Shown here piece after piece: positions 5,841 to 59,434 of a DNA stretch of 64,000 nucleotides (within the stretch, counting starts at the first letter, position 1; each line of letters begins with the position of its first letter). The notes below the pieces were generated by a model that saw nothing but the letters and a program-made list of their open reading frames with translations, did not search any database and was not told where the DNA came from. Both the position numbers and the translations under genes were made by a program. The DNA comes from Candidatus Micrarchaeota archaeon. GTDB taxonomy: Archaea > Micrarchaeota > Micrarchaeia > Anstonellales > Bilamarchaeaceae. The DNA lies in assembly GCA_964588555.1 (NCBI GenBank), contig CAZPPT010000002.1:101979-165978 (forward strand), written 5' to 3'.

Positions 5841-5854
5841 TAAGAGGTGAAATA

Positions 5855-31074: not shown

Positions 31075-31872
31075 CTACCTGGGAAACCCAAGCGCCGCTT
31101 TCTTCATTTTATATGCAAACTCCATAAGGAGTCTGAGGTTCTCGATATCTGCACTATTGTAGCGGATAAGCGTTTCAAGCGCTCCGCTGTCGCCTTTCTT
31201 ATACTTACGCCAGAGACGAACTGCATCAAATCCAGTAAGGTGTGCTATATCGCCATCACGCTCAAACCCGAATTCTTTCTCAATCTTCTTAAGCCCGCCC
31301 TTGTACCCGAGTGATCGAAGAACAAACCGTAAATCAATATGAAGTAAGGGGATTTGGATTTCAGGAACTTGTGCGCGCAAAAATGGGATATCAAACATCG
31401 TCCCGTTAAATGTTATGACTGCTTTATATGGCGCGAGCGCATGCGGGAGTTCGTCGATATTTTTTCCTTGTACGAACGTTTTGGTCGTTTTTCCATCATA
31501 TAAGCCAACAACAGTTACCTCGCTATGGTGCGGCACAAGACCGGTTGTCTCAATATCTAAAAATACAGTTTTCTCTGCAAAGTGGGGCCATGAGCGCCAT
31601 GTCTCTTTTGATGGAATAACTGATGAAAAATAGGTGCTGTTTAATTCATGGAGCGCCACTTTTGATGAGAAAATTTCGGGGATAAATCGGCTAAATTTCG
31701 CATGGTTCTGACATGTGTCAAGAAACTGATCCCATGTTCTGATCCCTTCTTCCCATAATTTTAATTCAGTTTTTTGTCCTACTGACGGAAGATGAATGAA
31801 TGTGTTTTCGAGCATGTGACTGTTTATCAGACAAATGATAAAAAGCTTTATGCGCTCTGAAGCGATTTCCAT
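31075..31872 (-). CDS. RNase H-like (DEDD-type) 3'-5' exonuclease domain protein, YprB/COG3359-like
   Basis: FLDIETTGL (Exo I) and HSEVTVVGLYDG, as seen in exonuclease family members. Confidence 0.5.
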   Translation of the reverse strand: MEIASERIKLFIICLINSHMLENTFIHLPSVGQKTELKLWEEGIRTWDQFLDTCQNHAKFSRFIPEIFSSKVALHELNSTYFSSVIPSKETWRSWPHFAEKTVFLDIETTGLVPHHSEVTVVGLYDGKTTKTFVQGKNIDELPHALAPYKAVITFNGTMFDIPFLRAQVPEIQIPLLHIDLRFVLRSLGYKGGLKKIEKEFGFERDGDIAHLTGFDAVRLWRKYKKGDSGALETLIRYNSADIENLRLLMEFAYKMKKAALGFPR

Positions 31873-33083
31873 TCAACTAATCCAAAAAAGAAAAGAGGCC
31901 GTCGAACGCGATCAACGATTCCTGGATGAGTCAAGATTATTTTTTTTCGTGCCTTAAAATTCTTAAACTGTGAAATACCTTTTTTGGTACCCCCGATTTC
32001 AATAATCGTATCGGCAAAAAGATAATCTGGTGTCTTGCCTCCACGTGTAGATTTTAAATAAAAATACTCCTGACCTGAAAAGCGGAGTGTTTCAACAAAA
32101 AAATCCTCACGAAGTGCGCCAATACAGTCGTCTTTACTTTTGTAAAGTAATCTAAATGGAAGGGAAAGAAGTATTTTAGGTTCCTTAAGTACATTTGTTC
32201 CGGTAGGGAATACCTGTGTAAGCACAAACGACTGTTCAAGCAGTTTTACATATTTTTCTGCCTTATATTTTGTAATACCCAAATTGCGGCTTAGTGATGT
32301 ATAATTTAGATCTTCTGCAGGTGATTTACCAATAAATGAAACGATATTTCTGATGTCGCGGATTTCTTCTGGTACAATAAGACCTGCTTTTGGCAGATCA
32401 TTTGCAATGATACGTTCAAGCATAGTACTAAATAAGGACATATAATCACTTTTTCCAAGAGTGAATGGATAACTCCTTCCGACTAGGTACGATTCGAATA
32501 GTGTCTCGTACGTAAGCACTTTTCCATAATATTCCCGTGATTTTTTCTCCTCAAACAGGTGAGCAAAAGAAAATTCTGGAATAATTTCGCCTTTTTCGAA
32601 TGTAATAAATTCTCTAAAGGTAAATGGCGGACACAATACAATTCGTACGCGTCGCGAAAGGTCAACTGCCGCCTGTGATAGTGAAAGTGCAACTGAGCCA
32701 CTAAAGATAACCATAATTGCAAGTACATCAAATATTTTTTTTAGATCTTCCTGAAAACGAGGATAAAACTGTATTTCATCTAAAATAAGATATCGGACCC
32801 CGCGACTTTCTAATTCCCTTGCAAGTTCGTAGAGTGACGGAACGGAACTGTTGTCAAGTGAAACGTAGAACGCGTTTTCCGTTTCAGCCAAGAGCTGCTT
32901 TAAAAGAATTGTTTTTCCGACACCTCGCGGTCCAACAAGACCGATAAAAATACGCTCGTTAAGGTGAGAACGAAGATACGAATAGATTGATCGCTTTTTT
33001 GTATAGCGCTTTCCTTCTTCGCGCGCCTTTTCGTTGAGTTCGATTAATTCCTGCTGCATAGAAATATAATAAATAGAAAACAT
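31848..33083 (-). CDS. AAA-superfamily ATPase of the archaeal ATPase/DUF4143 type
   Basis: Walker A LVGPRGVGKTILLKQ and Walker B YLILDEIQ. Confidence 0.6.
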   Translation of the reverse strand: MFSIYYISMQQELIELNEKAREEGKRYTKKRSIYSYLRSHLNERIFIGLVGPRGVGKTILLKQLLAETENAFYVSLDNSSVPSLYELARELESRGVRYLILDEIQFYPRFQEDLKKIFDVLAIMVIFSGSVALSLSQAAVDLSRRVRIVLCPPFTFREFITFEKGEIIPEFSFAHLFEEKKSREYYGKVLTYETLFESYLVGRSYPFTLGKSDYMSLFSTMLERIIANDLPKAGLIVPEEIRDIRNIVSFIGKSPAEDLNYTSLSRNLGITKYKAEKYVKLLEQSFVLTQVFPTGTNVLKEPKILLSLPFRLLYKSKDDCIGALREDFFVETLRFSGQEYFYLKSTRGGKTPDYLFADTIIEIGGTKKGISQFKNFKARKKIILTHPGIVDRVRRPLFFFGLVEWKSLQSA

Positions 33084-34626: not shown

Positions 34627-35934
34627 ATGAAACTCACATTTTTTGGCGGTGCGGGAGAAGTGGGACGGAGTTCTTTTCTTCTAGAAGACAAAGAGAAAAA
34701 CCTCCTTCTTGACTGCGGCATAAAGCTTGGTGAAAAAACCGAATACCCGCTTATCGGGGACAGCGAGCTAAAACGCATAGACAACATTTTTATTTCACAC
34801 GCACACCTTGACCATTCGGGCTACTTGCCGCACGTATTTGCACGCGACAGAAAAGCGAATATATTTTTAACAAAACCAACGCGCGACCTGCTTGGTGTTC
34901 TCTTAAGCGACTACCATCGCCTGCAAAAGGAAAAGGATGAACCAAACAAGTTCAGCCAAAAGGACGTGAACTCAATAATGGAAACTGCTTCAATTGTTGA
35001 ATTTGGCACCCCTGCTGCGATACCGTTTGAAAGCACGCTTCATAATGCCGGCCATGTGCTTGGAAGCGCAATGCTTCGGATCAATGAAAAAAACGGCATC
35101 CTTTATACGGGGGACATATGCGTTCGTAATACGCGCATTCTTGATGGGTGCGAACGAAATATCGCGGCAGAAACGCTTATTATTGAGAGCACGTACGGAA
35201 ACAAGGAAGATACGATTCCAAGCTACAAAGAAGCTGGTGCGAAACTTGTTGCAAGCATAAACAAGACGCTTGACGCAGGCGGGCATGTGATTATCCCAAG
35301 TTTTGCAATTGGACGGGCGCAGGAACTCCTCCTCATGCTAGATGATTATATGCGAAGTGGCGCACTCCGAAAAGCAAGTATATTTGTTGAAGGCATGATA
35401 ACAAAGGCACTCCGTATTTATCGCCATAACGCATATTATGCAAATGAGGACATCAAAAAAAGAATCCTCATGAGCGAGGACGACCCGTTCAAAAGCAAGT
35501 TCTTTCATGTATCTCGAAGCAAGGAACGGCTTGACGTACTCCGCGAGCCATCGATAATCGTTACAACATCGGGTATGCTTACTGGCGGGCCGGTTCACTT
35601 TTATTTAGACAAGCTTGGGAACGACCCAAAAAACAAGCTCATATTTGTAGGATACCAGGCAGAAGGGACGCCGGGGCGAAAAATCATTGAGGGCGAACGC
35701 GAAATCATGCTTGGCCCCAAGGGAAAGGAACATGCGCTTAAGATCGGCCTCCAGGTTGAATCGGTCAGGATGTCCGGGCATGCTGATTACAATGAGCTTC
35801 TCCAATTTATAAAAAGCGTACGGAACCTAAAGCGCGTCATTCTTGTCCATGGCGAAAAGCAGGACCTCCGAACGGCATTGGAAAGAAAATACGAAGTCAT
35901 AGCCCCAAAACTTGGGGAGACGATCTCGTTTTAG
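34627..35934 (+). CDS. beta-CASP metallo-beta-lactamase-fold ribonuclease (aCPSF/RNase J-like, short form)
   Basis: MBL motif II HAHLDHSG, downstream beta-CASP Asp/His motifs, about 435 aa. Confidence 0.65.
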   Translation: MKLTFFGGAGEVGRSSFLLEDKEKNLLLDCGIKLGEKTEYPLIGDSELKRIDNIFISHAHLDHSGYLPHVFARDRKANIFLTKPTRDLLGVLLSDYHRLQKEKDEPNKFSQKDVNSIMETASIVEFGTPAAIPFESTLHNAGHVLGSAMLRINEKNGILYTGDICVRNTRILDGCERNIAAETLIIESTYGNKEDTIPSYKEAGAKLVASINKTLDAGGHVIIPSFAIGRAQELLLMLDDYMRSGALRKASIFVEGMITKALRIYRHNAYYANEDIKKRILMSEDDPFKSKFFHVSRSKERLDVLREPSIIVTTSGMLTGGPVHFYLDKLGNDPKNKLIFVGYQAEGTPGRKIIEGEREIMLGPKGKEHALKIGLQVESVRMSGHADYNELLQFIKSVRNLKRVILVHGEKQDLRTALERKYEVIAPKLGETISF

Positions 35935-38900
35935 ATAAAGTCCTGGCATATCTGGTCCGAAACAGTTACCTGAACACTGCAATCTGCTTGTGGGTCTGAA
36001 TCGATATTTGCACTAACCGTCCCTTGTCCCGAAGTTGTGCTGGCATCGATGACAATAAATTCATCCCCGCTTGACACAAAAGATCCCACGCTCGGATCAA
36101 CAGTAAAGACAGGATTATTGCACACTTCATTTAGCTCATTAGGACACCTTAAACCAAGGCGTATAGAGCCGCCTGTTCGGACCTCAGCTACAGATGGAAT
36201 AAATGTACAATCATCTGAATCCTGGCCTGGCGGTGGCGGGGGTGGCCGGCCATTGCCAAGCGTAATTTGTGCATTGCAGATAAGCCCCTGGCTCGTAGTT
36301 GCCGTAAGCGTGCCGCTTCCGGTGGATGCCTGTGCAACAACGGATGTAGAAGTATCAGTTGAACTTGCAATGACTGCGGGAATGCCCTGGCTTAATTTCC
36401 ATTGGGTCATGCCAAAGCAAGGTTGTGGGACGCCACCGGTTCCAAAGCACTCAAGGGCAAAGGAAGCAGTCTGGCCTTGGCCAATGGTGGCTGTCGCAGG
36501 GTTGATCGCACATGAAGGTGCAGCAGGCGGTGCCTGAACGGTGATCGCCGAAGTGCACGAAAATGAATTTGCACGTGCCGTAAGCGTGCCGCTTGAGCCA
36601 GGTGCCGAAGTTGGTTGCAGTTGTGCACCAAGTGAGTTACGCTGGAAAAAGTTCGCGGTGATCCCTGAGACGGACCAAGTAAGCTGTGCCGGACATGGAA
36701 CAACGAGGTTGGCAGCATCGCGGCAGGTAAGGCCAAAGAACTGAACTGAGTTCTGAGGCACTGCAGCCTGGCTTGGGTTGATTACGCATGAAGTTGCCTG
36801 CGCAGGAAGCGGCTGAAGCGTGATTTGTGCGCTACACGTAAGGCCTTGACGGCTTGTGATTGCGTCAAGCGTGCCAGTGCCTGCCGGACCTTGTGCAAGC
36901 ACTGTTGCAGAGGTGGCGCTCTGTATTGTAATACTTGCCGGAAGACCGGTACTTAACCTCCATTGGGTATTTGGAGGGCATTGTTGGGGCGCACCTGCCG
37001 GATCAAAACATTGTAAGCTAAATACCTGACTTTGGGTTTCAGAAATAATGGCAGGGGAAGGGTTAACCGTACAAAACGGGATCCCCCGTGCGCCTACTGC
37101 AACAGATGCAGTACAAGAAAAACCATTTCCGCTTGCTACCACGTCCCCAACCGAACCGGGAGGTGAACTGATCTGCACCTGCGCACCCGTATCGCTTCGT
37201 TGTAAAAATGAACCGCTCAATCCGGCTGAGAGGGCCCAATTAACCTGTGAACAAGGGACCGTTGCACCGCTTTGGGAAGTGCAGCTTACTCCAAAAGTTT
37301 GTATGCCATTCTGTGTAACTGTTGCACTTGAGGGAGAAAGTGTGCATGCGACGGCCTGTTGCGAAACCATAGTTACAGCTGCACTACATTGGATGTTTCC
37401 CTCGCCCACGCGTGCATTGACGCTTCCCGTACCTGAAGGGGACGTAAGCTGGACACGTGCATGAGTATTGTCTCGGCTGACGAAATTGCCCATAACCCCG
37501 TTTATAGACCATGTTACGCCCAGACAGGGAATGCTTGCATTTGTGGCATCCGAACATTGGATGTCAAAACGGGTCGGCGGGTCAGTAACCCGCGCATTTA
37601 CTGCTGAAGGGATGAGCTGGCACGAAGTAACCGTTGGCTGGCCTGGGCCGGGGATAAAAAGGCCTGCACTACATGCTGCATTATCTACAGTAGCCGACAG
37701 TGTGCCGCTTCCGCTTGTTGAGGTAACGGTCACAAATGCAAGGTTTGCCTGGTCATTGGGTGTTACACTACCCCGAAGGCCAGTAAGTTGCCACTGTTCA
37801 TTATTGCATTGTGTGGGCGTGCCCACCTGATCCCGGCATCGAATGTCGAACTGTTGTGCCTGGTTTGGCTGCACATTTTGCGGGTTTGGCGTTATGGAAC
37901 AAAATGCCGCCGGCTGGACTGGTGCAGGACGCGCAGTGATGGTTGAGTGGCACGAGTAACGGCCATCAACGGTTGCATTTAGTATTGTCGTCCCTGACGA
38001 GGCAAGCATCTGAAGGGTTGCCTGCTGGTTGTCCTGTGAGGCAATTGTGCTTTGTGCCCCTGTTGCGCTCCACTGGACATTCTGGCAACTTGGAAGCGGG
38101 TTGTTGTTCCCGTCAACACAAGTTATGGGGAAGCTTCTGATTTCGTTCTGACGCATGGCAGTGCTTGCAGGGGTGATAAAACAGCTTTCCTGCTGCGGAG
38201 TTACATCGCCGCGAACATTATATGTAACGATAAAGTTCCGGACGTCTGGCTGAAATGACGAGCACGTGGGACCTTGTGCCCTATATGAGAACGTAATATC
38301 TGCAAGACTTGTTTGCCCACTTGGAACGCCGCCGGTTGCCGGATTGGTGAGGATAACGCATAAATCTTCGAAACCAAATCGTATGATATTCTGGTTAAAC
38401 CCGTTAAGAAAAGGACAAGGCGTAACCTGGAGCGGGGCATTTACGCTGACGCCGGTTGCCTGTACCGTAACGTCACCGGTATTTCGCACATTGATGACAA
38501 TGCGCTGGGACTGTCCAGGTGCAAGCTGGATCGTTGATCCTGCTTGAGGGGTTACTGAGTTTACTGAAAGGGCTGGCTGTATGTCCTGCACATGGATAGT
38601 GGTTTGAAGCGTCGGCAATGCAAGGGAATATTCAGGGGCATTTGCATCGCCAGTTGCCGCAGTCCTGCCGTATATACGCTCGTGATTATAATTAGCACAC
38701 TGGGGGTAACGAATAATGCCAAGACAACCCTCTACATCGAATTGTGAGTCGATCGTATAGGTGCCTTCCTGGGTAAGTAAGATACCGCCATGGGAGAACA
38801 CAGTCCCACTTGTTGTTTGCCGCTGCCGGTTTGCAACAGTGGTCGTTCCACGGCGAACGGTAATGCTGTCTTCACCAGTACAGATAAAATTAACGTCCCC

Positions 38901-39482
38901 GCGCCTATTTGACTGGCTACCCCAAACAACTGAGTCATACTCTACTGGTTGAGGTGCAAGCGAGCCCTCCTGCCCGTAACAGGACTCTGAAGCAGTGCAG
39001 AGGTCTTCATCAATAAACGTATTGTATGCATTGGTACTCCATAACACAGGCTGATTCTGGTTTATGGACGAATATGTCGGGATATACGTACATGCCTGAT
39101 TAAGCGTGTAACCCGGAGGCTCTGGAATGCGGTTGCCTGCAAAACCGTTTCTTACAGCCCAATAGGATAGGATATTATCCTGAACCGTTATAACCCCCGG
39201 ACAAATAACTGCCCCATCCGACAGGCTGCTGCCGCTCGTACCGCCGGAAATCACATTGGATGAAGTAGAAACGGTGCTTGAATAGATGTGGTCAAAATTA
39301 GTCTCAACGTTACTATATGACGCAGAGGGAACGGTATTAATACGATATAAGCGCACGTTGTCTGCAGGCGTTGTAGCGGTTATGGAAAATCCGCTTGCTA
39401 AAAGTACGAAAAATACAATGCCCACCAATACTACGTTAAAATGTCTTGCCACTAAAATCCACCTGGAGGATACCTCCAACAA
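35931..39482 (-). CDS. giant secreted/cell-surface protein with ~8 tandem ~95-aa Ig-like domains, each carrying 4 conserved Cys
   Basis: N-terminal anchor VVLVGIVFFVLLASGF. Repeating unit C.I.P....V.....Q.F...C.D..G....C....W.L..G..GS......A.L.......SG.GTL.A......C.A.I.L. Composition is T/S/Q/N/G-rich with a PPPPPP linker near the C-terminus. Confidence 0.55.
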   Translation of the reverse strand: MLEVSSRWILVARHFNVVLVGIVFFVLLASGFSITATTPADNVRLYRINTVPSASYSNVETNFDHIYSSTVSTSSNVISGGTSGSSLSDGAVICPGVITVQDNILSYWAVRNGFAGNRIPEPPGYTLNQACTYIPTYSSINQNQPVLWSTNAYNTFIDEDLCTASESCYGQEGSLAPQPVEYDSVVWGSQSNRRGDVNFICTGEDSITVRRGTTTVANRQRQTTSGTVFSHGGILLTQEGTYTIDSQFDVEGCLGIIRYPQCANYNHERIYGRTAATGDANAPEYSLALPTLQTTIHVQDIQPALSVNSVTPQAGSTIQLAPGQSQRIVINVRNTGDVTVQATGVSVNAPLQVTPCPFLNGFNQNIIRFGFEDLCVILTNPATGGVPSGQTSLADITFSYRAQGPTCSSFQPDVRNFIVTYNVRGDVTPQQESCFITPASTAMRQNEIRSFPITCVDGNNNPLPSCQNVQWSATGAQSTIASQDNQQATLQMLASSGTTILNATVDGRYSCHSTITARPAPVQPAAFCSITPNPQNVQPNQAQQFDIRCRDQVGTPTQCNNEQWQLTGLRGSVTPNDQANLAFVTVTSTSGSGTLSATVDNAACSAGLFIPGPGQPTVTSCQLIPSAVNARVTDPPTRFDIQCSDATNASIPCLGVTWSINGVMGNFVSRDNTHARVQLTSPSGTGSVNARVGEGNIQCSAAVTMVSQQAVACTLSPSSATVTQNGIQTFGVSCTSQSGATVPCSQVNWALSAGLSGSFLQRSDTGAQVQISSPPGSVGDVVASGNGFSCTASVAVGARGIPFCTVNPSPAIISETQSQVFSLQCFDPAGAPQQCPPNTQWRLSTGLPASITIQSATSATVLAQGPAGTGTLDAITSRQGLTCSAQITLQPLPAQATSCVINPSQAAVPQNSVQFFGLTCRDAANLVVPCPAQLTWSVSGITANFFQRNSLGAQLQPTSAPGSSGTLTARANSFSCTSAITVQAPPAAPSCAINPATATIGQGQTASFALECFGTGGVPQPCFGMTQWKLSQGIPAVIASSTDTSTSVVAQASTGSGTLTATTSQGLICNAQITLGNGRPPPPPPGQDSDDCTFIPSVAEVRTGGSIRLGLRCPNELNEVCNNPVFTVDPSVGSFVSSGDEFIVIDASTTSGQGTVSANIDSDPQADCSVQVTVSDQICQDFI

Positions 39483-41100
39483 ACAGTTTATTTAACTCAG
39501 GTAAAGCGCCAAGCGTTGCAGCGCTTTGTTTTGTAATATCAAATCCCAGTGTGAGTCCCCCGTTATATGTATAAACAAGACCGCCGCCGATAAGCTCGTC
39601 GCCTATAATAAATCGCCCGCCAAACGTATGGGCTGATCCTTGGAGTTTTGCACCCACTGAAAGGGTTTTGTCAGCAACGGGGAGTGCCCGCCCGCCGCTT
39701 AGGACAAGTGACCAGTCAATGACGGGCATTACCGCAAAATCACCAAGCCTAAAAAGGGAAGCCGCAAGTGCGCCCTTGTGGCGCCACATGTCAGGAGCAT
39801 TTCCTCTAAAGTAGTTTTCTGATTCTATGGAAAGCGCGGAATAAACCGGAAAGCGGCCAAATGGAACCACCTTGCCGCTTACATCCGTAAATGAAACCTT
39901 AAGTCCAAGGCCAAATGGCGGATAATCAGGTAAGCCGATATTTCCAATAAGGGTTGTGTCAAATGAAAGTTCCGTGCCTTTTGAGCCAAAGAGTTCAATT
40001 GCGGCACGGATGCCGCCGCGCAGGACAATGTCCGAATTGGTATTGCCAGTTGGCTCGATCGAAATGGAGCGTCTTTTTTCATCATACATGCCGCCCCACT
40101 CCTCATTTACCAATATGTCAAGTGCCGCAATACCTGAAAGGTACAGTGAGCCATTCTTAAATGGCCGAAGACGGGGACTTTCACCGCCAAGCGCGATGGC
40201 AAATATGGGAGTTTCAAACCGGATCTCACGAACAAGGTCCGGCAGGTTTTCAATTAAGGCGCTTTTTTCTGTTGCCTCTGAGATCCTGCCGTCACGGTAC
40301 AACTGAAGTATTTCATCGCCTGACACTTGGTCATTTCCTAAAAAGTCATTGGGATCCCCTGGGATTCGTTTGAAAAGGTCTGCAATCTTTTTGCCCTGTT
40401 CCTTTGCCTCCTTGCTGCCTGGCGAATAAATTGCCTCAACCCGTATGCCTTCGGCAAGTGATGTCGAAAATGAGGGGTGATCCGCTGCAGGAATGCGCGT
40501 CCTCCAGTCTGGCGTCAGCTGGACCTCCGGAACACCGACGTTAATGGTCCTTCTGATAGATAAGCCTTCAGGAAAGAAGGTAAGTGACGGGCGTGGGACT
40601 TCGTCTTCAAGACGCACCGGGACCGAGACTGTGCGTACTGATCTTGCGCCTGCGTCGCGCACTTGTGTTGCGCTTCCGGTAAGGATGCCTGCAACAACAA
40701 GCTGGGCACGCTGGGTCGAAGTAAGAGGTAACCCAAGAAGCCCCCGTTGTGAATCAAAAAAGAGGTTATTGAAGAGGCGCATTTGTTCTGGAGACATTGC
40801 ATCGCGCTCCTGTTTCCAGGTAGTCCATATTGCAACCATTCGGTCAAGGTCTGGCATGCTGACAGATTTTGCCTCTTTTGAACGGACAATGATTTCTGCA
40901 GCGCTGCGCATGTCCTGGAGGAATTGCGGTTCGTCAAAAGATTTTGTTTTCACGGCAGCCATGGGTTCACCAGCCGGCACCTCCTGTGCCTTTGAGATAA
41001 GCGGGGTTGTGATGGAAAGAATGCATGCAAGGGTGCTTGCTGTAATACGGGGAACCTTGCGACGAGTAGTGCGATGAAATTTCAGAACCATATCCATCAT
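39436..41100 (-). CDS. secreted beta-rich protein with C-terminal Phe (porin/OMP-like features)
   Basis: Signal-like N-terminus ITASTLACILSITTPLISKAQE. The C-terminal half has alternating hydrophobic dyads (LVYTYNGGLTLGFDI, FVGGILQVDFSGKTF) and a terminal F. Confidence 0.45.
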   Translation of the reverse strand: MMDMVLKFHRTTRRKVPRITASTLACILSITTPLISKAQEVPAGEPMAAVKTKSFDEPQFLQDMRSAAEIIVRSKEAKSVSMPDLDRMVAIWTTWKQERDAMSPEQMRLFNNLFFDSQRGLLGLPLTSTQRAQLVVAGILTGSATQVRDAGARSVRTVSVPVRLEDEVPRPSLTFFPEGLSIRRTINVGVPEVQLTPDWRTRIPAADHPSFSTSLAEGIRVEAIYSPGSKEAKEQGKKIADLFKRIPGDPNDFLGNDQVSGDEILQLYRDGRISEATEKSALIENLPDLVREIRFETPIFAIALGGESPRLRPFKNGSLYLSGIAALDILVNEEWGGMYDEKRRSISIEPTGNTNSDIVLRGGIRAAIELFGSKGTELSFDTTLIGNIGLPDYPPFGLGLKVSFTDVSGKVVPFGRFPVYSALSIESENYFRGNAPDMWRHKGALAASLFRLGDFAVMPVIDWSLVLSGGRALPVADKTLSVGAKLQGSAHTFGGRFIIGDELIGGGLVYTYNGGLTLGFDITKQSAATLGALPELNKLFVGGILQVDFSGKTF

Positions 41101-41143: not shown

Positions 41144-44100
41144 TCATTTGTTGGAAACGCGTGCAGGTGCGTTATATGAAACAATAACTGCACCATAGGT
41201 TTCACCAATGCGCGCACGGACTGACGGTGCTGCTGCAACGGATAGTGTAACTTCCTTCTCGCGAGGGTCGTCAGGCACTACTGTTGCGCCCTTGACGGTA
41301 CCAAATACATATTGTTCGTATTCAGGCCGTGTAATCGTAAGGCTTAGTGTTGCACCGCTGCTGCTTAAAAGTGGCGTGTATTCAAACGTACCGATTGCGG
41401 TCGGGCGTAATTTACGTGCTTCACCTTCCTCTGCGTCTACGAGGCGGTTGCGGTCAAGATAGATAAGTATTGAGCCAGTATCATCAAGGCGTGCAACTGA
41501 CCGTATGTTTTCATTTCCAGGTCCCGCATACGTTTGAGGTAAAAGAAGATAATGCCGCGCATCTTCCCCCTCACCGGTTTTCTTGAATAAGGCATATGTT
41601 ATCGTGGTTGAAGGGTCTGCAAGCACGCTTGTAAGCGGTGCTGCCTTTGTGGCAGTTACGACAAACTCGGCCTCAATCCTGCTGCCCGGGCTTGCGGAGA
41701 CGGACTTGGCAGTAACGGGAAATGTAAGTTCTGCTTCCAGGTATTCCACATCCTGGGTTGCAAGCGCACGGAGAAGGTCTTTTGCACCGGAGGAGATTTC
41801 CTCAGGCGCCGCAGTATGTGTAGCAGTACGTACCGGCGGAGTCGCAGCAGGTGGCGCAAACTTTGCCCGGTTCTTTGGATTAAGTGCATAAAGGGCGATA
41901 TTTTCTGCCGATCGATAGTTGCCTTCATTATATTTTTCACGCGCGCCGGAAAGTGAACTTTTAAACCTGCTGGTATCTCCTTTTTGTTCATCAATAAGGG
42001 CTTCAAGCCGTATGATTGCATTATACGCATGCGCGCGGGCACTTAGTTCACGAAGGGAATCGACTGTACCCTTTGGTATTCTAGCCCCGGAATTTGCGAT
42101 TTGGGATAATAATCTTGCACGTGTGCCCTCCAGTTCACCATATTCCTTTCTACGAGGGTGAGTTGTACCAACTTTAGTAATGGTTTTCTGAAGGGCTACA
42201 AGCGCATTTGCCGCAGCAACGCTTGAGGTGGCTACTTCCGTAGAAAGCTCGCCAGTTATTGCTTCGTCGACAGGCAATTCCAATTCTTTAATGCGTCCAA
42301 GCACAGCCTCGCGGTGCTTCGCAGTAAAGTCACCACCACGCGAACGTTCCGAATCCTGAAGATACCTGTCCTTTATTAAAAGCTCTTCCAAACGGGCAAA
42401 TGCAGCTTGATAACTCGATTCAGTTTTATCCGAAGTAACCGGAACCTTTGCAAGCGGCCTGCCCTTATCGTCAACGAGATAATTAAGGTCGATAAGTGCA
42501 TTGATAACATTTTTTGCAGCCTCAACATTATTTTGTGCAAGGGTGCGCTTGCCGCCTGGGTCCGTAGAAATGGAGATTGAATCTTCAGTATTCTCAATTT
42601 CTGCAATAAGGGTTTTGATCTGATCCTGTATTTCCTGATTAGGCACCATAGTACTTGTCACGGCAGGACGTGCGACCTGTGTTGCCGTTTGTATTTCATT
42701 ATTAACGCGTGCAAGCTGTGCAGCGTACGTTTGTTTTTCTTTTGAAGACAACGGTTCAAATGCAGTAAGCCGTTCAAGAAGTTCACGCGAAGTATTGAGA
42801 AGCGCACGTGCCTCGTCAGGCTTTTTCCTGGCCAGTTTCTTCCCTTTTTCATACAGGTCTTTTGCGATTTTAAATACCGAAGCGTGATCACCAACTGAAA
42901 GGAACGCAGTGGCAGCTTCGCCGTACTTGCCTTGATCTGCAAGGGCTTTTGCCTGCAGTACCGTGTCTTCCTGTTGTTGTTTCTCCTGCGCAAGCGCTAC
43001 CTCATTTTGAAGAAGCGGAAGGATTACGTCCTTATCTCGTATGACGTTTTCATATCGCTGGGCCGCAGTTAGCCACCTGTACTGTGCAAGATTGCGACGA
43101 GCTTGCACCAACTCGTCTTCATAAGAATCAAGCACTTTTTTTAATGACTGTCTTCGTTTGGTGCCTCTTGCTTCTACCAATATCTCATTAAGCCGTTTAT
43201 TTCCGATAAGTTTTGCGGCTTTTTGCATTTCCGCATATACGGGCATCGTTCTTGCATGTGCATCAAGTGCCTGAAATGCCTCATCGACTTCTTTTTTAAA
43301 CTGAGTTATGATTTTCGCAGGGCTTTGTGCATTAAGTTTTTCAAATCGCCCCTCAAAATAATCAATCGCTGATTCAACCACTTTCGGATCGTATCCTTCC
43401 TTACCCTTAAGTTGGCGTATTTTTTCGATCTGAAGCCTGGCGGTTTGAAGCAACTCGGCATTTCCGCGCGAAGGCATCGGTATAATTATTTCTTCAGCCA
43501 CTACTTGCGGTGTGCCGGTTGAAGTCCGCGTACCCAATGGCCCGAGAGCCGGCTTTGGTATCTGCGCAAGACGCTCTGCTTCCTGTGCGAGGCGAACTGC
43601 ATCTGAAAAATCCGTACCCCGTGCACGAAGCGTTTTTTCATATGCTTTCCTCGCCGCATCGAGCTTCTTTTGGGCAGCTCTTTTCTTCCCTTTATCCTTC
43701 AATGCCTGTATGGAAGATTCCGCTTGCGCAAATAATTGATTAAAACTCTTTGCTGCGTCTTCTGAAACGCGGAGAAGATCAGCATCAGTTTGTTTTTCAA
43801 TGAGTGAATCAAGCCGCCGTTTATTCCGTGAATCACCAAGTACCGCGTAAATATCCCGTGCAACCCGCATATTTTTGTTTTTTTCTGCATCAGATGCAAG
43901 AGAGCGCGCAATATGGTCTGCCCCAAGACTATGAAATATCTTCGCACTTTCAGTAATCCTACCAGCTGTAAGGTGTCCATTTGCTTTTGATAGCTCGCCT
44001 GCCACGTCATTTACGCATGCAAGCGTAGCAGTGTCAAAAAACCCCGCATTTCCCCGTTCATAAGAAGAAGCAACGGTCACATCTTCTAAGTATTTTTGCA

Positions 44101-44458
44101 TTGAGGAAATAGCCGCGCGCGTCGCCTTGTCAAGCACGCCATCTGTGCTAATGGGTCTGCCTTTGATAAACCCATTGGTAACAAAGGAATTGTATAATTG
44201 CTGAACAAGTTTTACGTTTTCACTCGGGGAATTATCCCATGTACCAATAACAACGGGGTGCGTACTAGAAACAACCTGCGCGTTATTTAACTGCTTGATA
44301 CTGTCAATAATTGACTGGGGATCCACACTTGCCTGCGCCGGAACAAGGAGCGCCAACCGCTGAGCCTGACTGATCATCATCGTATTTGGCATTGCATTTA
44401 CCCCGCCATACGGCCAGAATGCGATAACCGCCCCTGCAATTCGTGCGAGCAGTGGCAT
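41144..44458 (-). CDS. large secreted protein: peptidoglycan-binding-like domain, then ~900 aa coiled-coil/helical-repeat region
   Basis: N-terminal hydrophobic segment. LVQQLYNSFVTNGF...STDGVLDKATRAAISSMQKYL...GFFDTATL resembles a PG_binding_1 motif. The rest is K/E/A/L-rich helical sequence. Confidence 0.45.
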   Translation of the reverse strand: MPLLARIAGAVIAFWPYGGVNAMPNTMMISQAQRLALLVPAQASVDPQSIIDSIKQLNNAQVVSSTHPVVIGTWDNSPSENVKLVQQLYNSFVTNGFIKGRPISTDGVLDKATRAAISSMQKYLEDVTVASSYERGNAGFFDTATLACVNDVAGELSKANGHLTAGRITESAKIFHSLGADHIARSLASDAEKNKNMRVARDIYAVLGDSRNKRRLDSLIEKQTDADLLRVSEDAAKSFNQLFAQAESSIQALKDKGKKRAAQKKLDAARKAYEKTLRARGTDFSDAVRLAQEAERLAQIPKPALGPLGTRTSTGTPQVVAEEIIIPMPSRGNAELLQTARLQIEKIRQLKGKEGYDPKVVESAIDYFEGRFEKLNAQSPAKIITQFKKEVDEAFQALDAHARTMPVYAEMQKAAKLIGNKRLNEILVEARGTKRRQSLKKVLDSYEDELVQARRNLAQYRWLTAAQRYENVIRDKDVILPLLQNEVALAQEKQQQEDTVLQAKALADQGKYGEAATAFLSVGDHASVFKIAKDLYEKGKKLARKKPDEARALLNTSRELLERLTAFEPLSSKEKQTYAAQLARVNNEIQTATQVARPAVTSTMVPNQEIQDQIKTLIAEIENTEDSISISTDPGGKRTLAQNNVEAAKNVINALIDLNYLVDDKGRPLAKVPVTSDKTESSYQAAFARLEELLIKDRYLQDSERSRGGDFTAKHREAVLGRIKELELPVDEAITGELSTEVATSSVAAANALVALQKTITKVGTTHPRRKEYGELEGTRARLLSQIANSGARIPKGTVDSLRELSARAHAYNAIIRLEALIDEQKGDTSRFKSSLSGAREKYNEGNYRSAENIALYALNPKNRAKFAPPAATPPVRTATHTAAPEEISSGAKDLLRALATQDVEYLEAELTFPVTAKSVSASPGSRIEAEFVVTATKAAPLTSVLADPSTTITYALFKKTGEGEDARHYLLLPQTYAGPGNENIRSVARLDDTGSILIYLDRNRLVDAEEGEARKLRPTAIGTFEYTPLLSSSGATLSLTITRPEYEQYVFGTVKGATVVPDDPREKEVTLSVAAAPSVRARIGETYGAVIVSYNAPARVSNK

Positions 44459-44627
44459 CTGGCCACGGAAAAATTTACCGGTCTATGGGCATGCCTTGTC
44501 TTTTTTTCTGTGGTCACTGTTGCCATATTTACACCATAGAATAGTATATCACGAATAGTATTTAAATGAAACAGCCCCGACGTGGCATACATGTACTAAG
44601 AACACCGTATTCATTTATTAACCTAAC

Positions 44628-51960: not shown

Positions 51961-52153
51961 CATGAATATGCAACTCGTCTTCTTTTGTGAATGAACCAAT
52001 GCCCCGATATAACCCAAAACCGCTCTTCTTGACTTTTTTAACCGCTATTTCAACTGGCTCATTTGGATGAATATTGAGAAGTTCTACGAGCTGTTTTGGG
52101 ATAGTAACCATAAGAGAACCTCCAACACTTACGGTCTTAGATATGAATTCCAT
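51956..52153 (-). CDS. AbrB/SpoVT-type antitoxin-like protein
   Basis: GGSLMVTIPKQLVELLNI swapped-hairpin motif. It overlaps the PIN gene start. Confidence 0.5.
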   Translation of the reverse strand: MEFISKTVSVGGSLMVTIPKQLVELLNIHPNEPVEIAVKKVKKSGFGLYRGIGSFTKEDELHIHD

Positions 52154-52347
52154 TTAATCACCTGTTTAATTTAATTAAACAAAGTATTTAATAAACTAGT
52201 GGTAATCAGACCATATGTTGAAAAAGTATTTCATTATGAAAGCACCGATGAAGGAAAATACAAAAAAGGAAAATCCGACAACAATGGCATAATACAAATT
52301 ATGCCTGCGACAGCAACCTAAATCATAAAAATACGCTCGTCAAACTG

Positions 52348-52509
52348 CTCTCAAACGCAGTTAATCCGTTTCTTATTCCCCGATGTGCAAAATAAATCGT
52401 AATTTAATTTCTCATTTATTGCAGCGGATAAAACAAGAAAAAAGATGCCGAGCAGAATAAGCGCAAGCGCTTGTAGCTCAGCCACCTTGAAAAATTTTTT
52501 ATCTTCCAT
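52348..52509 (-). CDS. candidate 53-aa single-TM micro-protein (below the ORF-track length cutoff)
   Basis: MEDKKFFKVAELQALALILLGIFFLVLSAAINEKLNYDLFCTSGNKKRINCV, with SD-like AAGGTGA 8 nt upstream. Confidence 0.25.
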
Positions 52510-52583
52510 AAACAAATTCACCTTTTAATCTTTCTTCTACTTTGCCTACCAATAACGCAGTAAAGGAAAAACAATAAATGACG

Positions 52584-53894
52584 TCAATCCAAAAGCCATT
52601 TCCAGATCGGTTTTATAGTTATTTTTTTACCATTCACGGTGAGTTCTTCTGTTTGGTCTTTTGTTAGTATCAGCCCGCCTTGTAATTTAAAAAAGTTGAG
52701 TGCCCCAAGCAACCCGTTTATTTCACGATCATGGGTTTTTTCATCCAGTTTGTAGCATACTTGTATCGCCTGGCTGATTTTTCCTTTTTTATTTATAACA
52801 AAATCGCATTCCAGATTGTTGTCTGATTTATAATAAAATATACTTTTGTTTTCCACATTCCCCTCTCTTCTGAATAGTTCTATAAAAACAATATTTTCGC
52901 ATATCCTGCCGAAATCCTCTGCTTCATTCGTAAGAAAATGAATATACCCTGTATCGAATAGGTATATTTTTGATTTTGAAAACTCGCTTTTCTTAAATGA
53001 TTTGGAATACTCTCGCACATAGCAAAGCATAAATACGTCTTCTAATGCGGCAAGAATGTGGTATATGTCCTCTAAGCTATATGGTAATTTATTTGATTTG
53101 AGATAGCGTTCATATGCAGAAATGGAAAAAGTATTGCCAAAAAGATTAAGAAGGTATTTCATTGTTACTTCAACTAACCGTATATTTTTCAAGGCAAGCC
53201 GCTCAACAAGATCTTTATAGAGTACTGAATCAAAATAATTGTTTATTATTTTATTCTTAAGTGCCAGTTCAGTGCTTAAGACCACTTCGGGAAACCCGCC
53301 ATATTTTGCGTATTCATCAAACTGTTTTTTTATTTCAAATGCAGTATCCCCATATTCAAAATTCTTTTCTGGTGTGATCCCTCTTGTTTTTAGATATTCG
53401 AAAAAAGAAAATGGTAAAAGCAGATAAGAGAGCGACTTGCCCCGGAGAGCCGTTGCTATCTCTTTACTTAATAACTTTGAATTTGACCCTGTAATCGTTA
53501 CCGGATAATGCTCGTTTAGCAGACCAACAATAAACGGTTCCCAGTTTTTTACATTCTGAAGTTCATCAAAAAAGAAAACCAGTTTTTCTTTTGAAAAAAA
53601 CTCCTTTGAGTAGTCTAAAATTTTACTTAGATCACGTGCTGTTATTTCACTTAAGAGATTGTCATCAAAATTTATGAATACCCAGTCTTTGTCTTTTTGT
53701 TTTTTTATCATATTATACGTATAGTATGTTTTGCCTGCCTTTCGTGGACCGATAAGGATAGTTGCTTTATCGAGCTTTGTTTCGTATATTTGTAGATCTC
53801 TTTCATAAATACGTTCTGGCAGTAATTGCCGGTACTTAAGTATTATCCGTTTGATATCATCGTCGATCATATATACATTAGAAAGTAGCAACAT
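52584..53894 (-). CDS. AAA-superfamily ATPase, archaeal ATPase/DUF4143 type (paralogue of 31848..33083)
   Basis: Walker A LIGPRKAGKTYYT and Walker B FFFDELQN. Confidence 0.6.
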   Translation of the reverse strand: MLLLSNVYMIDDDIKRIILKYRQLLPERIYERDLQIYETKLDKATILIGPRKAGKTYYTYNMIKKQKDKDWVFINFDDNLLSEITARDLSKILDYSKEFFSKEKLVFFFDELQNVKNWEPFIVGLLNEHYPVTITGSNSKLLSKEIATALRGKSLSYLLLPFSFFEYLKTRGITPEKNFEYGDTAFEIKKQFDEYAKYGGFPEVVLSTELALKNKIINNYFDSVLYKDLVERLALKNIRLVEVTMKYLLNLFGNTFSISAYERYLKSNKLPYSLEDIYHILAALEDVFMLCYVREYSKSFKKSEFSKSKIYLFDTGYIHFLTNEAEDFGRICENIVFIELFRREGNVENKSIFYYKSDNNLECDFVINKKGKISQAIQVCYKLDEKTHDREINGLLGALNFFKLQGGLILTKDQTEELTVNGKKITIKPIWKWLLD

Positions 53895-53967
53895 ATAAAG
53901 CTTACGCTTTTCCGTAAGAAATTAACTATTTTTCTTACGCTTTTCCGTAAGTTTTATCCAACGGCAA

Positions 53968-55011
53968 TTACATCTTGATTTTCCGCCTAAACTTAATATA
54001 AGTTGCATAGGAGATGTACTGTTTTCGCGCAACGTGGTCCTTGACAAGCGGCGCCTTATTCCTTTTTTCCTCAATACGGTCAGTAACCGTAAGTGCAAAC
54101 GAATCGCTTCCCGCACCGCTTCCATAGGAAGTTACCAGTATCCGGTTTCCCGTTTTCGCTTCGTCAAGCACTGCCGCAAGGCCAAGGATGCTTGCACCAG
54201 AATAAGTATTCCCAATAATAGGGGTAAGCAGCCCCGCCTTCATCTTCTCAGGCGCAATGCCCATCTGCTTACCAAGCTGGATTGGGAATTTTGCATTTGG
54301 CTGGTGGAACACGATATAGTCGAAATCATTTGCCTTCATACCGACTTTCTCAAGAAGCCCCTCAGTTGCCTTGCCAACGTGCTTAAAGTATGCCGGTTCA
54401 CCAGTGAACCTACCGCCATGGAGCGGGTAATCACTTCCTTGCCTTCGCCAGAAGTCAGGAGTGTCGGTCGTGTACGAGTATGTCGCATCGATAGTTGCAA
54501 GTGACTCCTTTTCCGGGCCGACAATATATGCTGCTGCACCGCTTCCTGCACTGTACTCAAGTGCGTCACCAGGCCTTCCCTGCGCAGTGTCTGCACCGAT
54601 CGCTAAGCCATACGCAATGTGGCCTGCGGACACCATGCCGCTTACCATCTGAATACCGGCAGTACCTGCCTTGCATGCAAACTCTAGGTCCGCGGCAGTT
54701 GTCGCAGGCGTTGCACCGATCGCCTCCGCAACAATGGTTGCAGTCGGCTTGACTGCATACGGGTGTGACTCGCTTCCAACATACACCGCACCGATACGGG
54801 AGGGATTTATCCCTGCACGCAAAAGTGCACCTCGTGACGCTTCTGTGGCAAGCGTTGCCGCATCCTCATCAACTCCGCCCACTGCCTTTTCAAGAATCCC
54901 AAGTCCTTTTTCGATGCGTGCCGTCTCTTCGCCCCATACGGAGGCGATTTCAGCAGTCTTGATCCGATAAGATGGGATATAAACGCCATAACCTACAATG
55001 CCTGTTTTCAT
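53968..55011 (-). CDS. hydroxymethylglutaryl-CoA synthase, archaeal type
   Basis: [18 protein letters not shown]-terminus, active-site Cys context [12 protein letters not shown], thiolase-fold His/Asn region. ORF listed to 55131. Confidence 0.7.
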
Positions 55012-55159
55012 AATAACACCTAAGATGAGTAATAAAGACATATGCACGCAAAGGAATAAAAGGATGTTTATATGGCGATGGCGGCTACGGCAGATGTCGA
55101 TACGAAAAGAAGTGGAAATCCACCGATCCATTTTTATTTATTGTGAGCGCACTCATTCC

Positions 55160-55651
55160 ATGGCATACACGCTTGGAGACGCCCAAAAACAGCTCCGGGC
55201 AGGAAAACTGCGCGACGCAGGCAGGGCGCTCGATTACCTTATAAGTCAGGATAGGTCAAACAGCAAGCTATGGTACCTGCGCGGCCTTGTGTCACTTCGT
55301 ACAAAGAATTATGACTATGCGCATGAATGCTTCGTACACGCCCTTGAACTTGAGAAGAAGGCGGCATACTACAAGATACGCGGCATGGCACATATGGAAA
55401 AATACGAATTTGAGGATGCGCTTGAACAGTTTGAGGCTGCTCGGGCGCTTGAGGAAAACGATACTGAAAATTATTTTTACATTGCATTATGCCACCTGTT
55501 CCGTAACAACCCTGCTGCAAAGACATACCTGGAAAAGGCATATCGGCACAACAGTACAAAAACAAAAAAAATGATACGGGATTTTTTTGAAACGTTCTTT
55601 CATAGCAGCGGTGATGCGCACCGGTTTCTTGGTAAGTTAAACCGCCTTTGA
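55160..55651 (+). CDS. TPR-repeat protein
   Basis: Three 34-aa units with the W/Y-LG-Y-A-F-P-like pattern (WYLRGLVSL...YDYAHECFVHALEL, YKIRGMAHM...FEDALEQFEAARAL). Confidence 0.45.
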   Translation: MAYTLGDAQKQLRAGKLRDAGRALDYLISQDRSNSKLWYLRGLVSLRTKNYDYAHECFVHALELEKKAAYYKIRGMAHMEKYEFEDALEQFEAARALEENDTENYFYIALCHLFRNNPAAKTYLEKAYRHNSTKTKKMIRDFFETFFHSSGDAHRFLGKLNRL

Positions 55652-57432: not shown

Positions 57433-58148
57433 AGCTTTTTAAGGATTTCCAAAAGCGAGGAAAAATCCCCAAGTGATGCAGTAGCACGAGTCTTCTTTAC
57501 TCTTTCTTGTTTTTCTCGGCGCACAAGGATGGCGTGCATCCCTACGTGGCGGGCTGGCGCAATGTCAAATTCCTCCTTGTCGCCGACCATGACGCACGAC
57601 TCAGGGGGGACACGAAGGCGCAGAAGCACCTTTTCAAAGAACTGCGTGCTTTTCTCAATGCCGACTTCATCAGATACGAATACGTCCTCAAAATAAAGGG
57701 CAACACCAAGGCGGATGAGCTTGTCCCATTGCTTTATCGCATTTCCGTTTGTCGCCACATACAGCTTGTACCCGTTTTCGCGCAACTGAAGAAGCGTGCG
57801 CGGGACGTCGGGATAGGGAAGTATGCTTGCCTTTGCGTTATGGTATGCTGCAACTGCCGCTGCAATAAAACGCGCCGGACTTTGTATCTTAAGCTCCTTA
57901 AGCAATGCATCAAAATGATGGGGGTCGTTTGAACCGCGCCGTTTGATGATGGCAAGAAGCTTTTCATAGAGCGCATCGCTATTCCTAAACGGCAGGCCAA
58001 GCTCAATCATGGAACGGATCGCATTTTTGCGTGCAAGAAGGGCAAACTCGCTTGTGGGAAAGAGGGTATTGTCGATATCAAAAAACAGGTGACCGACGGG
58101 CATACTAGAAACTAGAACGGCTGCATTTTTATTTATGCCCTTTGTCAA
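57429..58148 (-). CDS. HAD-superfamily hydrolase
   Basis: Motif I FFDIDNTLF, motif II VATNG, motif IV VGDKEEFDI. Confidence 0.65.
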   Translation of the reverse strand: MTKGINKNAAVLVSSMPVGHLFFDIDNTLFPTSEFALLARKNAIRSMIELGLPFRNSDALYEKLLAIIKRRGSNDPHHFDALLKELKIQSPARFIAAAVAAYHNAKASILPYPDVPRTLLQLRENGYKLYVATNGNAIKQWDKLIRLGVALYFEDVFVSDEVGIEKSTQFFEKVLLRLRVPPESCVMVGDKEEFDIAPARHVGMHAILVRREKQERVKKTRATASLGDFSSLLEILKKL

Positions 58149-59421: not shown

Positions 59422-59434
59422 GTCAATCAGCAAA

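What the first reader, a model, noticed from the sequence alone, without database searches (positions are those of the whole stretch)
41144..44458. 1104-aa protein combining a peptidoglycan-binding-like motif with a ~900-aa coiled-coil region
Residues ~80-150 fit the PG_binding_1 pattern (V.LVQQL...GF......STDGVLDKATRAAISSMQKYL...G.FDTATL). Archaea lack murein, though some have pseudomurein. The remainder is a long helical, TPR-like or coiled-coil scaffold.
Basis: partly seen in the sequence, partly recalled or inferred. Interest (0 to 1): 0.5.

Follow-up and report, generated by a model that had tools for sequence, protein, structure and literature searches.

The report
Orphan archaeal surface-cassette scaffold protein
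The 1104-residue protein is real, but its "peptidoglycan-binding" motif is only a below-threshold resemblance and its long middle is not a coiled coil; it is the first gene of a fast-evolving three-gene cassette, probably for cell-surface proteins, known from only three poorly sampled archaeal contigs.

Summary
The ORF (41144-44458, minus strand, 1104 aa) and the quoted motif are there. Pfam PG_binding_1 scores 15.7 bits (E 0.017) against a gathering score of 23. Reversed decoys reach E 0.085-0.098, and the two relatives score worse or not at all. HHalign against true PGB domains gives 4-8% probability, although the motif is the best-matching stretch of the protein. No PMBR or TPR hit appeared. 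A heptad test excludes a canonical coiled coil (10-13% of windows against 92% for tropomyosin).

An exhaustive HMMER search of 1.84 billion representatives found two relatives (883 and 652 aa).

All three are followed by a homologous gene B, which carries a signal-peptide-like N-terminus. Two are also followed by gene C, which has an N-terminal hydrophobic anchor, a Cys-rich domain and 2-8 four-Cys modules. Cassette proteins are 30-35% identical where a neighbouring housekeeping gene is 72%.

Best reading: a lineage-specific envelope or surface scaffold (confidence 0.4). Murein binding is unproven. Interest is modest.

The parts
41144..44458 (-). Gene A: 1104-aa ORF, the finding itself. pI 9.0, one Cys.
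   Evidence: ORF listing. Exact match to P0001. Two homologues found by exhaustive HMMER, E 3e-25 and 7e-24.
44393..44458 (-). Residues 1-22, a moderately hydrophobic N-terminus (MPLLARIAGAVIAFWPYGGVNA). Possibly a signal peptide; not established.
   Evidence: Best Kyte-Doolittle 8-mer is 2.6. P0002 has a similar segment (2.7) and P0003 has none (1.35). In alignment A1, P0002's start aligns near Met23.
44009..44221 (-). Residues 80-150: family-conserved three-helix module, copy 1. This is the PGB-like motif.
   Evidence: Invariant in all three homologues: V85 N90 F92 V93 D106 T113 A116 Q121 L124 G136 G139 F141 D142 T145 V149. AlphaFold places helices at residues 80-94, 111-127 and 143-170, at pLDDT 58. 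Pfam PG_binding_1 is sub-threshold. HHalign against true PGB domains: score 20.1, probability 4-8%.
41789..43948 (-). Residues 171-890: helix-rich spacer of variable length (about 720 aa here, about 525 in P0002, about 295 in P0003). Not a canonical coiled coil.
   Evidence: A/E/K/Q/L/R make up 43-63% per 100-aa block. There are 26 Pro, and the longest Pro-free stretch is 130 aa. 13% of 28-aa windows pass the heptad threshold, against 92% for tropomyosin. Length variation is seen in alignment A1.
42287..42529 (-). Residues 644-724: second, divergent copy of the three-helix module, inside the spacer.
   Evidence: BLASTP of copy 1 against copy 2 gives E 1e-4. HHalign against the family core scores 17.4 over 74 columns in full register, with 0 of 200 shuffles reaching it. 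The equivalent copy in P0002 scores 24.0, E 5e-4.
41798..41878 (-). Residues 861-887: Pro/Ala/Thr-rich linker (PKNRAKFAPPAATPPVRTATHTAAPEE) before the C-terminal domain.
   Evidence: Sequence and Pro positions.
41147..41779 (-). Residues 894-1104: the most conserved part of the family, a beta-rich C-terminal domain of unknown fold.
39436..41100 (-). Gene B: 554 aa, 43 nt downstream of A. Signal-peptide-like N-terminus, no known domain.
   Evidence: 33% identity, E 1e-90, to the gene after P0002. A partial homologue follows P0003. No Pfam, NCBIfam, PHROG or PADLOC hit. The N-terminus has a basic stretch followed by a hydrophobic stretch.
35931..39482 (-). Gene C: 1183 aa, overlapping the end of B by 47 nt. 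It has an N-terminal hydrophobic anchor or signal, a Cys-rich domain of about 430 aa, then eight four-Cys modules of about 92 aa (about 35973-38195), and ends ...ICQDFI. Acidic (pI 4.7), 0.1% Lys.
   Evidence: E 5e-102 to the 625-aa third gene of L002, which has two modules. Hydrophobic segment at residues 7-40. Cys positions, pI and Lys content. No family hit.
44459..44627 (.). Intergenic region of 169 nt between gene A and the divergent DUF424 gene. Presumed promoter region, with A/T-rich boxes (tttaaata, taaattttt).
   Evidence: Sequence. No archaeal promoter test was run.

Best explanation
Gene A encodes a lineage-restricted, fast-evolving archaeal protein with this layout: a possibly cleaved N-terminal hydrophobic segment; a family-specific three-helix module; a helix-rich spacer of variable length that carries a second copy of the module; a Pro-rich linker; and a conserved beta-rich C-terminal domain of about 210 aa.

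Gene A is the first gene of a conserved cassette, probably co-transcribed, with two proteins that look exported. Gene B has a signal-peptide-like N-terminus. Gene C has an N-terminal hydrophobic anchor and is an acidic, Lys-free, Cys-rich protein with 2-8 four-Cys repeat modules.

The most likely role is an elongated scaffold or spacer of a cell-envelope or cell-surface assembly. The three-helix modules would bind a partner or an envelope polymer. The conserved C-terminal domain would dock onto B or C. The basic A may pair with the acidic C.

Shown: the architecture, the family, the synteny and the rapid divergence.
Inferred: export of A, the helical nature of the spacer, any contact between A, B and C, and any ligand.

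The module resembles PG_binding_1 at the pattern level, but membership and murein binding are not established.
For: - Same architecture in three homologues.
- The module is conserved at 15 positions and is duplicated mid-protein in the two longer homologues.
- The C-terminal domain is the most conserved part.
- The gene order is conserved. A-B-C is seen in the window and in L002 (B: E 1e-90, C: E 5e-102), and A-B in L003, whose contig ends within B. Spacing is the same in both full cassettes: a short A-B gap and a B-C overlap.
- B and C have N-terminal hydrophobic export-type segments. C has the composition of an extracellular protein: S+T 22%, 43 Cys in a regular pattern, pI 4.7.
- Cassette proteins are 30-35% identical while the neighbouring beta-CASP gene is 72% identical. 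This is typical of exposed surface proteins.
- The length of A's spacer and the number of C's modules both differ between genomes.
- No viral, defence or enzymatic family matches.
Against: - Export of A is not shown. P0003 has no hydrophobic N-terminus, and A has no transmembrane segment or known anchor.
- Both AlphaFold models are low confidence (pLDDT 58 and 50) and give no fold match.
- No domain is shared between A and B or C, and no interaction was tested.
- With only three loci, synteny could reflect shared ancestry rather than function.
- The helical character of the spacer rests on composition alone.
Confidence: 0.4

Rival explanations
1. A is a cytoplasmic helical protein, for example an assembly, chaperone or regulatory factor for the exported products B and C. 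The PGB-like pattern is then a chance resemblance of an amphipathic helix-loop-helix motif.
For: - P0003 has no N-terminal hydrophobic segment, and those of the other two are weak.
- Pfam support is at noise level.
- Two registers compete in the relatives.
- A has one Cys and is basic and Lys-rich, unlike C.
Against: - Two of the three homologues do have a hydrophobic N-terminus comparable to that of gene B.
- A diverges as fast as B and C.
- The window's A is depleted in N-X-S/T sequons, as C is (1 observed against 6.2 +/- 2.2 expected), though A of L002 is not.
Confidence: 0.25
2. The module is a genuine, highly divergent PG_binding_1-fold domain that binds bacterial murein. It would tether the cassette's surface apparatus to bacterial cells, for antagonism or for attachment to a bacterial partner.
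For: - The motif region is the best PGB match in the protein and lies well above the shuffle null.
- The family-invariant residues map onto PGB signature positions on all three helices.
- The predicted helices fall where expected.
- The module occurs twice, and tandem PG_binding_1 domains occur in archaeal PG hydrolases (PMC12352652).
Against: - The score is below the gathering threshold in all three proteins.
- HHalign probability is 4-8%, and a profile of true PGB domains scores about 0 bits.
- No PGB chain is found by the family profile or by fold search.
- There is no catalytic wall-hydrolase domain anywhere in A, B or C.
Confidence: 0.12
3. The module binds the archaeon's own wall polymer, such as pseudomurein or another glycan, and so anchors a surface layer.
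For: The overall layout is that of a wall-anchored spacer. The cassette looks like envelope proteins.
Against: - No PMBR hit at E<=1.
- No murein or pseudomurein synthesis gene was recognised among the window's ORFs that were scanned.
- No methanogenesis gene was seen in the window. From general knowledge, pseudomurein is known only in Methanobacteriales and Methanopyrales.
- The rest of the genome could not be examined.
Confidence: 0.06

Closest known systems
PG_binding_1 (Pfam PF01471), a three-helix peptidoglycan-binding domain found in SleB, phiKZ gp144, the Zn D-Ala-D-Ala carboxypeptidase, and the archaeal hydrolases Woldo and Danwoldo
   Same: The size is similar (about 60-70 aa) and there are three helices. 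There is a pattern-level match, V..L...G(F/Y) ... D ... T..A(V/I)...Q..L ... G.F..T...(V/L). It can occur more than once per protein. It is the best-matching region of the protein in HHalign.
   Different: The score is below the curated threshold in all members. The loops are longer. The DG.FG and GL..DG signatures are degenerate. No catalytic partner domain is present. No PGB match is found by PDB profile or fold search. Ligand unknown.
The two-component archaeal S-layer SlaA/SlaB of Sulfolobales (PMC10903991)
   Same: Adjacent genes encode a large beta-rich outer protein and a protein that combines beta domains with a long helical stalk. Charge complementarity between the partners is proposed there; here A has pI 9.0 and C has pI 4.7. 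The outer component is the more variable one.
   Different: There is no sequence similarity: the PDB sequence searches returned nothing relevant. SlaB's helix is a 132-aa trimeric coiled coil that ends in a transmembrane helix. A has no transmembrane helix and no heptad signal. The helical part is 300-720 aa, the domain order is reversed, and the cassette has a third gene.
Modular archaeal peptidoglycan hydrolases (PMC12352652)
   Same: They are archaeal, secreted, and carry tandem PG_binding_1 domains.
   Different: By definition they contain a catalytic domain (M23, glucosaminidase and others). None is detectable here.

Membership tests
PG_binding_1 (PF01471) | Score at or above Pfam's gathering threshold (23 bits) | tested here: not met
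   15.7 bits for the whole protein and 17.7 bits for the N-terminal fragment. P0002 scores 12.6 bits in a shifted register, and P0003 has no hit. Reversed decoys reach E 0.085-0.098, against 0.017 for the real sequence.
PG_binding_1 (PF01471) | Profile-profile similarity to genuine PGB domains | tested here: inconclusive
   HHalign of A2 against four PDB-derived PGB domains gives 4-8% probability and P 0.004-0.009. The score of 20.1 exceeds all 300 column shuffles, and windows clear of the motif score <=14.5. A small PGB HMM scores about 0 bits.
PG_binding_1 (PF01471) | Three-helix bundle fold | tested here: inconclusive
   AlphaFold places helices at residues 80-94, 111-127 and 143-170, but pLDDT is 58 and pTM 0.50. 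The best Foldseek hit against the PDB has E 0.89, and no PGB domain appears.
PG_binding_1 (PF01471) | Extracytoplasmic location or association with wall-modifying domains | tested here: inconclusive
   No catalytic domain is found. An N-terminal hydrophobic segment is present in 2 of 3 homologues only. No dedicated signal-peptide predictor was available.
PG_binding_1 (PF01471) | Binds peptidoglycan | not testable with these tools
   This needs a sacculus pull-down with the purified module.
PMBR, the pseudomurein-binding repeat | HMM match | tested here: not met
   Not among the Pfam hits at E<=1 for A, or at E<=10 for its N-terminal, middle and C-terminal fragments.
Canonical coiled coil | Sustained heptad periodicity of hydrophobic a/d positions | tested here: not met
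   10-13% of 28-aa windows exceed the 95th percentile of the sequence's own shuffles, and the longest run is 19 windows or fewer. Residues 171-890 contain 26 Pro. This is a home-made score, not COILS or MARCOIL.
TPR / Sel1 helical repeats | HMM match to repeat families | tested here: not met
   No TPR or Sel1 family at E<=1 in A, P0002 or P0003. As an internal contrast, a true TPR protein elsewhere in the window (54998-55651) is detected.
SlaB-type S-layer stalk protein | Signal peptide, beta-sandwich domains, trimeric coiled coil and a C-terminal transmembrane anchor | tested here: not met
   No transmembrane segment, no heptad signal, and no sequence match to any PDB chain. Features taken from PMC10903991.
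Modular peptidoglycan hydrolase | A catalytic wall-hydrolase domain plus a wall-binding domain | tested here: not met
   No catalytic domain in A, B or C, or in the homologues.

The most novel reading that the evidence does not exclude
A, B and C form a previously undescribed three-component archaeal surface apparatus in an almost unsampled lineage. A would be a non-enzymatic scaffold whose duplicated, highly divergent PGB-fold modules tether the structure to a glycan polymer, possibly the wall of a bacterial partner or prey. The reach of the apparatus would be tuned by expansion of A's helical spacer and of C's four-Cys modules.
Probability: 0.1. Interest if true: 0.6.

Novelty: new variant of a known kind. 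Interest (0 to 1): 0.3.

Why it matters
If the cassette is an envelope or surface assembly, it adds an uncharacterised architecture to the small set of understood archaeal cell-surface systems. That architecture would comprise a helical scaffold with a reusable three-helix module, an exported protein of unknown fold, and a disulfide-rich repeat protein.

If the module proved to be a true PGB fold without an enzyme attached, it would point to archaeal attachment to murein rather than lysis.

As it stands it is a lineage-specific orphan family. Its small size is at least partly a sampling effect, because every neighbouring housekeeping protein is also a singleton at 90% identity. The finding is of modest interest.

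Tried and rejected
- **Word-indexed homologue searches.** These used A alone, the A alignment and the B alignment. Each returned only the query's own cluster.
- **Scans for more loci.** Genome contigs twice, metagenome contigs twice and viral contigs twice found none.
- **tblastn of A against phages.** No match.
- **PDB sequence searches.** A, the N-terminal profile, the C-terminal profile, C and the B profile gave nothing significant.
- **PHROGs and PADLOC.** Nothing, apart from a CARF hit at E 0.005 with no domain passing on its own, which I treat as noise.
- **Taxonomy.** There are no tRNA or rRNA genes in the window. The accessions SRR5011273, SRR22387786, GCA_053535495 and JAIYJC do not appear in the paper library. 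Cluster look-ups gave no names. The organism can therefore only be called an archaeon, from its gene content.
- **Other negatives.** No paralogues of A, B or C exist in the window. No tandem DNA repeats underlie gene C's modules. A's C-terminal domain shares no domain with B or C.
- **Mobile element or provirus: rejected.** There are no viral or defence hits. The cassette's GC content (0.46-0.53) lies within the window's range. The flanking beta-CASP gene is conserved in both the window and L002.
Full report
**1. Observation**

The window has an uninterrupted ORF of 1104 codons at 41144-44458 on the minus strand. There are no transmembrane-grade hydrophobic segments. The protein is Ala/Leu/Glu/Arg/Lys-rich and has pI 9.0. 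So the ORF and the motif are there.

**2. Is it a PG_binding_1 domain?**

Pfam reports PG_binding_1 at 15.7 bits and E 0.017 (residues 80-123 on profile positions 3-40 of 57). The gathering score is 23. The isolated N-terminal fragment scores 17.7 bits.

- The same scan gives equally good hits to unrelated families: DUF4398 at E 0.018 and YfdX at E 0.033.
- Reversed decoys of the three family members reach E 0.085-0.098. The hit is therefore only about five-fold better than noise.
- No PMBR hit appears at E<=1.
- In the two relatives found later, P0002 scores E 0.16 in a shifted register and P0003 scores nothing.

I collected four genuine PGB domains from PDB chains: SleB, an ErfK/YbiS-family protein, 5tv7 and phiKZ gp144. 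I then ran further comparisons:

- HHalign of the family's N-terminal alignment against these four gives 4-8% probability and P 0.004-0.009, in the same register as Pfam.
- An HMM built from the four scores about 0 bits on all three proteins.
- In favour, the score of 20.1 exceeds all 300 column shuffles (9.3 +/- 1.6). Windows holding the full motif score 20-21.5, and windows clear of it score <=14.5.
- The family profile finds no PGB chain in the PDB.
- The AlphaFold model of residues 40-175 puts helices at 80-94, 111-127 and 143-170, where a PGB-like module would have them. But pLDDT is 58, and Foldseek finds nothing (best E 0.89).

Verdict: this is a pattern-level resemblance above a naive null. 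Family membership is not established, and ligand binding is untested.

**3. Coiled coil or TPR?**

- No TPR or Sel1 family scores at E<=1.
- A heptad-periodicity score was calibrated on each sequence's own shuffles. It flags 13%, 11% and 10% of 28-aa windows in the middle regions of the three homologues, with runs of at most 19 windows.
- Residues 171-890 hold 26 Pro and 32 Gly.

The middle is helix-prone by composition, with A/E/K/Q/L/R at 43-63% per 100-aa block. That is inference. It is not a continuous canonical coiled coil.

**4. The family**

The word-indexed search finds only the protein itself. An exhaustive phmmer search of 1.84 billion representatives finds two relatives:

- P0002: 883 aa, NCBI GCA_053535495.1, E 3e-25.
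- P0003: 652 aa, Logan SRR22387786, E 7e-24.

The matches lie mainly in the last ~200-310 residues. Alignment shows one architecture:

- A conserved module: V..(I/L)(V/Y)N.FV...D...T..A(V/I)..(L/M)Q..L...G..G.FD..T..V.
- A helix-rich spacer of about 720, 525 or 295 aa.
- A Pro-rich linker.
- A beta-rich C-terminal domain with 39-41% identity and 51 invariant columns.

The two longer proteins carry a second, divergent copy of the module inside the spacer. P0002's copy scores 24.0 (E 5e-4) against the family core. The window protein's copy scores 17.4 over 74 columns. None of 200 shuffles reaches either score. The module is therefore a reusable unit.

**5. Surroundings**

Gene A is followed after 43 nt by gene B (554 aa). 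Gene B is overlapped by 47 nt by gene C (1183 aa).

- In L002, P0002 is followed by a 548-aa homologue of B (E 1e-90). That gene is overlapped by a 625-aa homologue of C (E 5e-102).
- In L003, P0003 is followed by a partial homologue of B.
- B has a basic-then-hydrophobic N-terminus and no known domain.
- C has a strongly hydrophobic N-terminal segment and a Cys-rich domain of about 430 aa. It then has four-Cys modules of about 92 aa (C-x20-C-x9-10-C-x44-47-C), eight in the window and two in L002. It ends in IC(Q/A)DFI, is acidic (pI 4.7) and is almost Lys-free.
- No Pfam, NCBIfam, PHROG, PADLOC or PDB match exists for B or C.
- The beta-CASP gene next to the cassette is 72% identical between the window and L002. 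A, B and C are 30-35% identical. The cassette therefore evolves much faster than housekeeping genes.

**6. Organism**

Gene content is archaeal:

- CDC48 (1088 bits).
- Archaeal-type HMG-CoA synthase (552 bits).
- ApgM.
- aCPSF1-like beta-CASP.
- Archaeal RqcH.
- Replication-factor-A-like OB protein.
- FlaI-like ATPase.

No murein or pseudomurein gene was recognised among the ORFs scanned, but the rest of the genome could not be read. Seven neighbouring proteins are singleton clusters at 90% identity. Neither genome is among the GTDB species representatives that were scanned. The lineage is barely sampled, and that alone explains much of the family's rarity.

**7. Mechanism**

My best reading (confidence 0.4) is an envelope or surface cassette in which A is an elongated scaffold. 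The modules would bind a partner or a polymer, the spacer would set the distance, and the C-terminal domain would dock onto B or C.

Supporting points:
- The conserved operon structure.
- The export-type N-termini of B and C.
- The fast divergence.
- The length variation in both A and C.
- The opposite net charge of A and C.

Points against:
- Export of A is unproven, since P0003 lacks a hydrophobic N-terminus.
- There is no confident structure.
- There are no interaction data.

Rival readings:
- A cytoplasmic assembly or regulatory partner (0.25).
- A true divergent PGB module that binds bacterial murein (0.12).
- Binding of the archaeon's own wall polymer (0.06).

**8. Comparison with known systems**

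- **PG_binding_1.** A resemblance only; see the membership table.
- **Archaeal PG hydrolases with tandem PG_binding_1 domains.** These exist in about 5% of archaeal genomes (PMC12352652). A PGB domain in an archaeon is therefore not anomalous, but those proteins have catalytic domains and this one does not.
- **SlaA/SlaB.** This pair offers a functional analogy: adjacent genes, a beta-rich canopy plus a helical stalk, and charge complementarity (PMC10903991). There is no homology, no transmembrane anchor and no coiled-coil signal here.

**9. Verdict**

- This is a real, lineage-specific orphan family within a conserved three-gene cassette.
- The headline claim, a peptidoglycan-binding domain plus a 900-aa coiled coil, does not hold at the curated thresholds.
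- Interest 0.3.

Noticed in passing
window 35931-39482 (-), gene C; also L002 4771-6648 (+): N-X-S/T sequons are strongly depleted although the protein is rich in N, S and T. The window copy has 2 against 14.5 +/- 3.3 expected from shuffles, and the L002 copy has 4 against 10.0 +/- 2.8. The window's gene A is also depleted (1 against 6.2 +/- 2.2), but A of L002 is not (2 against 2.0). This may reflect selection to escape N-glycosylation of exported proteins.
   Followed up: partly
window 35973-38195 (-): Gene C contains eight modules of about 92 aa, each with four Cys (C-x20-C-x9-10-C-x44-47-C). The L002 homologue has two. The modules look Ig-like or Big_2-like by eye, but no Pfam hit appears at E<=1, and there is no DNA-level tandem repeat.
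   Followed up: partly
window 39436-41100 (-), gene B: The C-terminal half is rich in Gly and aromatic residues, with conserved YTY, GFD and MPVID motifs. In the window copy the protein ends in ...DFSGKTF.
   Followed up: no
window 490-6454 (+), perhaps also 12865-14490 (-): An archaeal type IV pilus or archaellum-like locus: a FlaI-like ATPase (T2SSE), a 534-aa ORF without hits, two T2SSF membrane proteins, and a 199-aa ORF whose N-terminus looks like a class III (prepilin) signal (…RGQAAMEYLMTYGWAILVILIVL…). The 541-aa ORF at 12865-14490 also begins …KKGFFFVIIVFVIL.
   Followed up: partly
window 52001-54000: A GC trough (0.339, against about 0.46 for the window) coincides with an AAA_14/DUF4143 ATPase gene at 52584-53894. 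A second AAA_14/DUF4143 gene lies at 31848-33083, next to an RNase_H_2-family gene. These may be islands or mobile elements.
   Followed up: no
window 24514-31029 (-): A complete bacterial-type uvrC-uvrB-uvrA gene run in this archaeal contig.
   Followed up: no
window 58129-63987 (-): Four consecutive large ORFs (467, 625, 415 and 456 aa) have no Pfam hit at E<=1e-5. Several have N- or C-terminal hydrophobic segments and Pro/Ala/Thr-rich stretches. This may be another block of lineage-specific envelope proteins.
   Followed up: no
window 35931-35934: The stop codons of gene C (-) and of the convergent aCPSF1-like beta-CASP gene (34627-35934, +) overlap by 4 nt, which leaves no room for an intergenic terminator. 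A beta-CASP gene also lies near the cassette in L002.
   Followed up: partly
whole window: All seven housekeeping proteins found in the collection are singleton clusters at 90% identity, seen only in one NCBI contig (166 kb) and one Logan assembly (SRR5011273). The window has no tRNA or Rfam hit in 64 kb.
   Followed up: partly
L003 181-998 (+): A nucleotidyltransferase/HEPN (MNT-HepT type) toxin-antitoxin pair lies directly upstream of the P0003 homologue. This differs from the context in the window and in L002.
   Followed up: no
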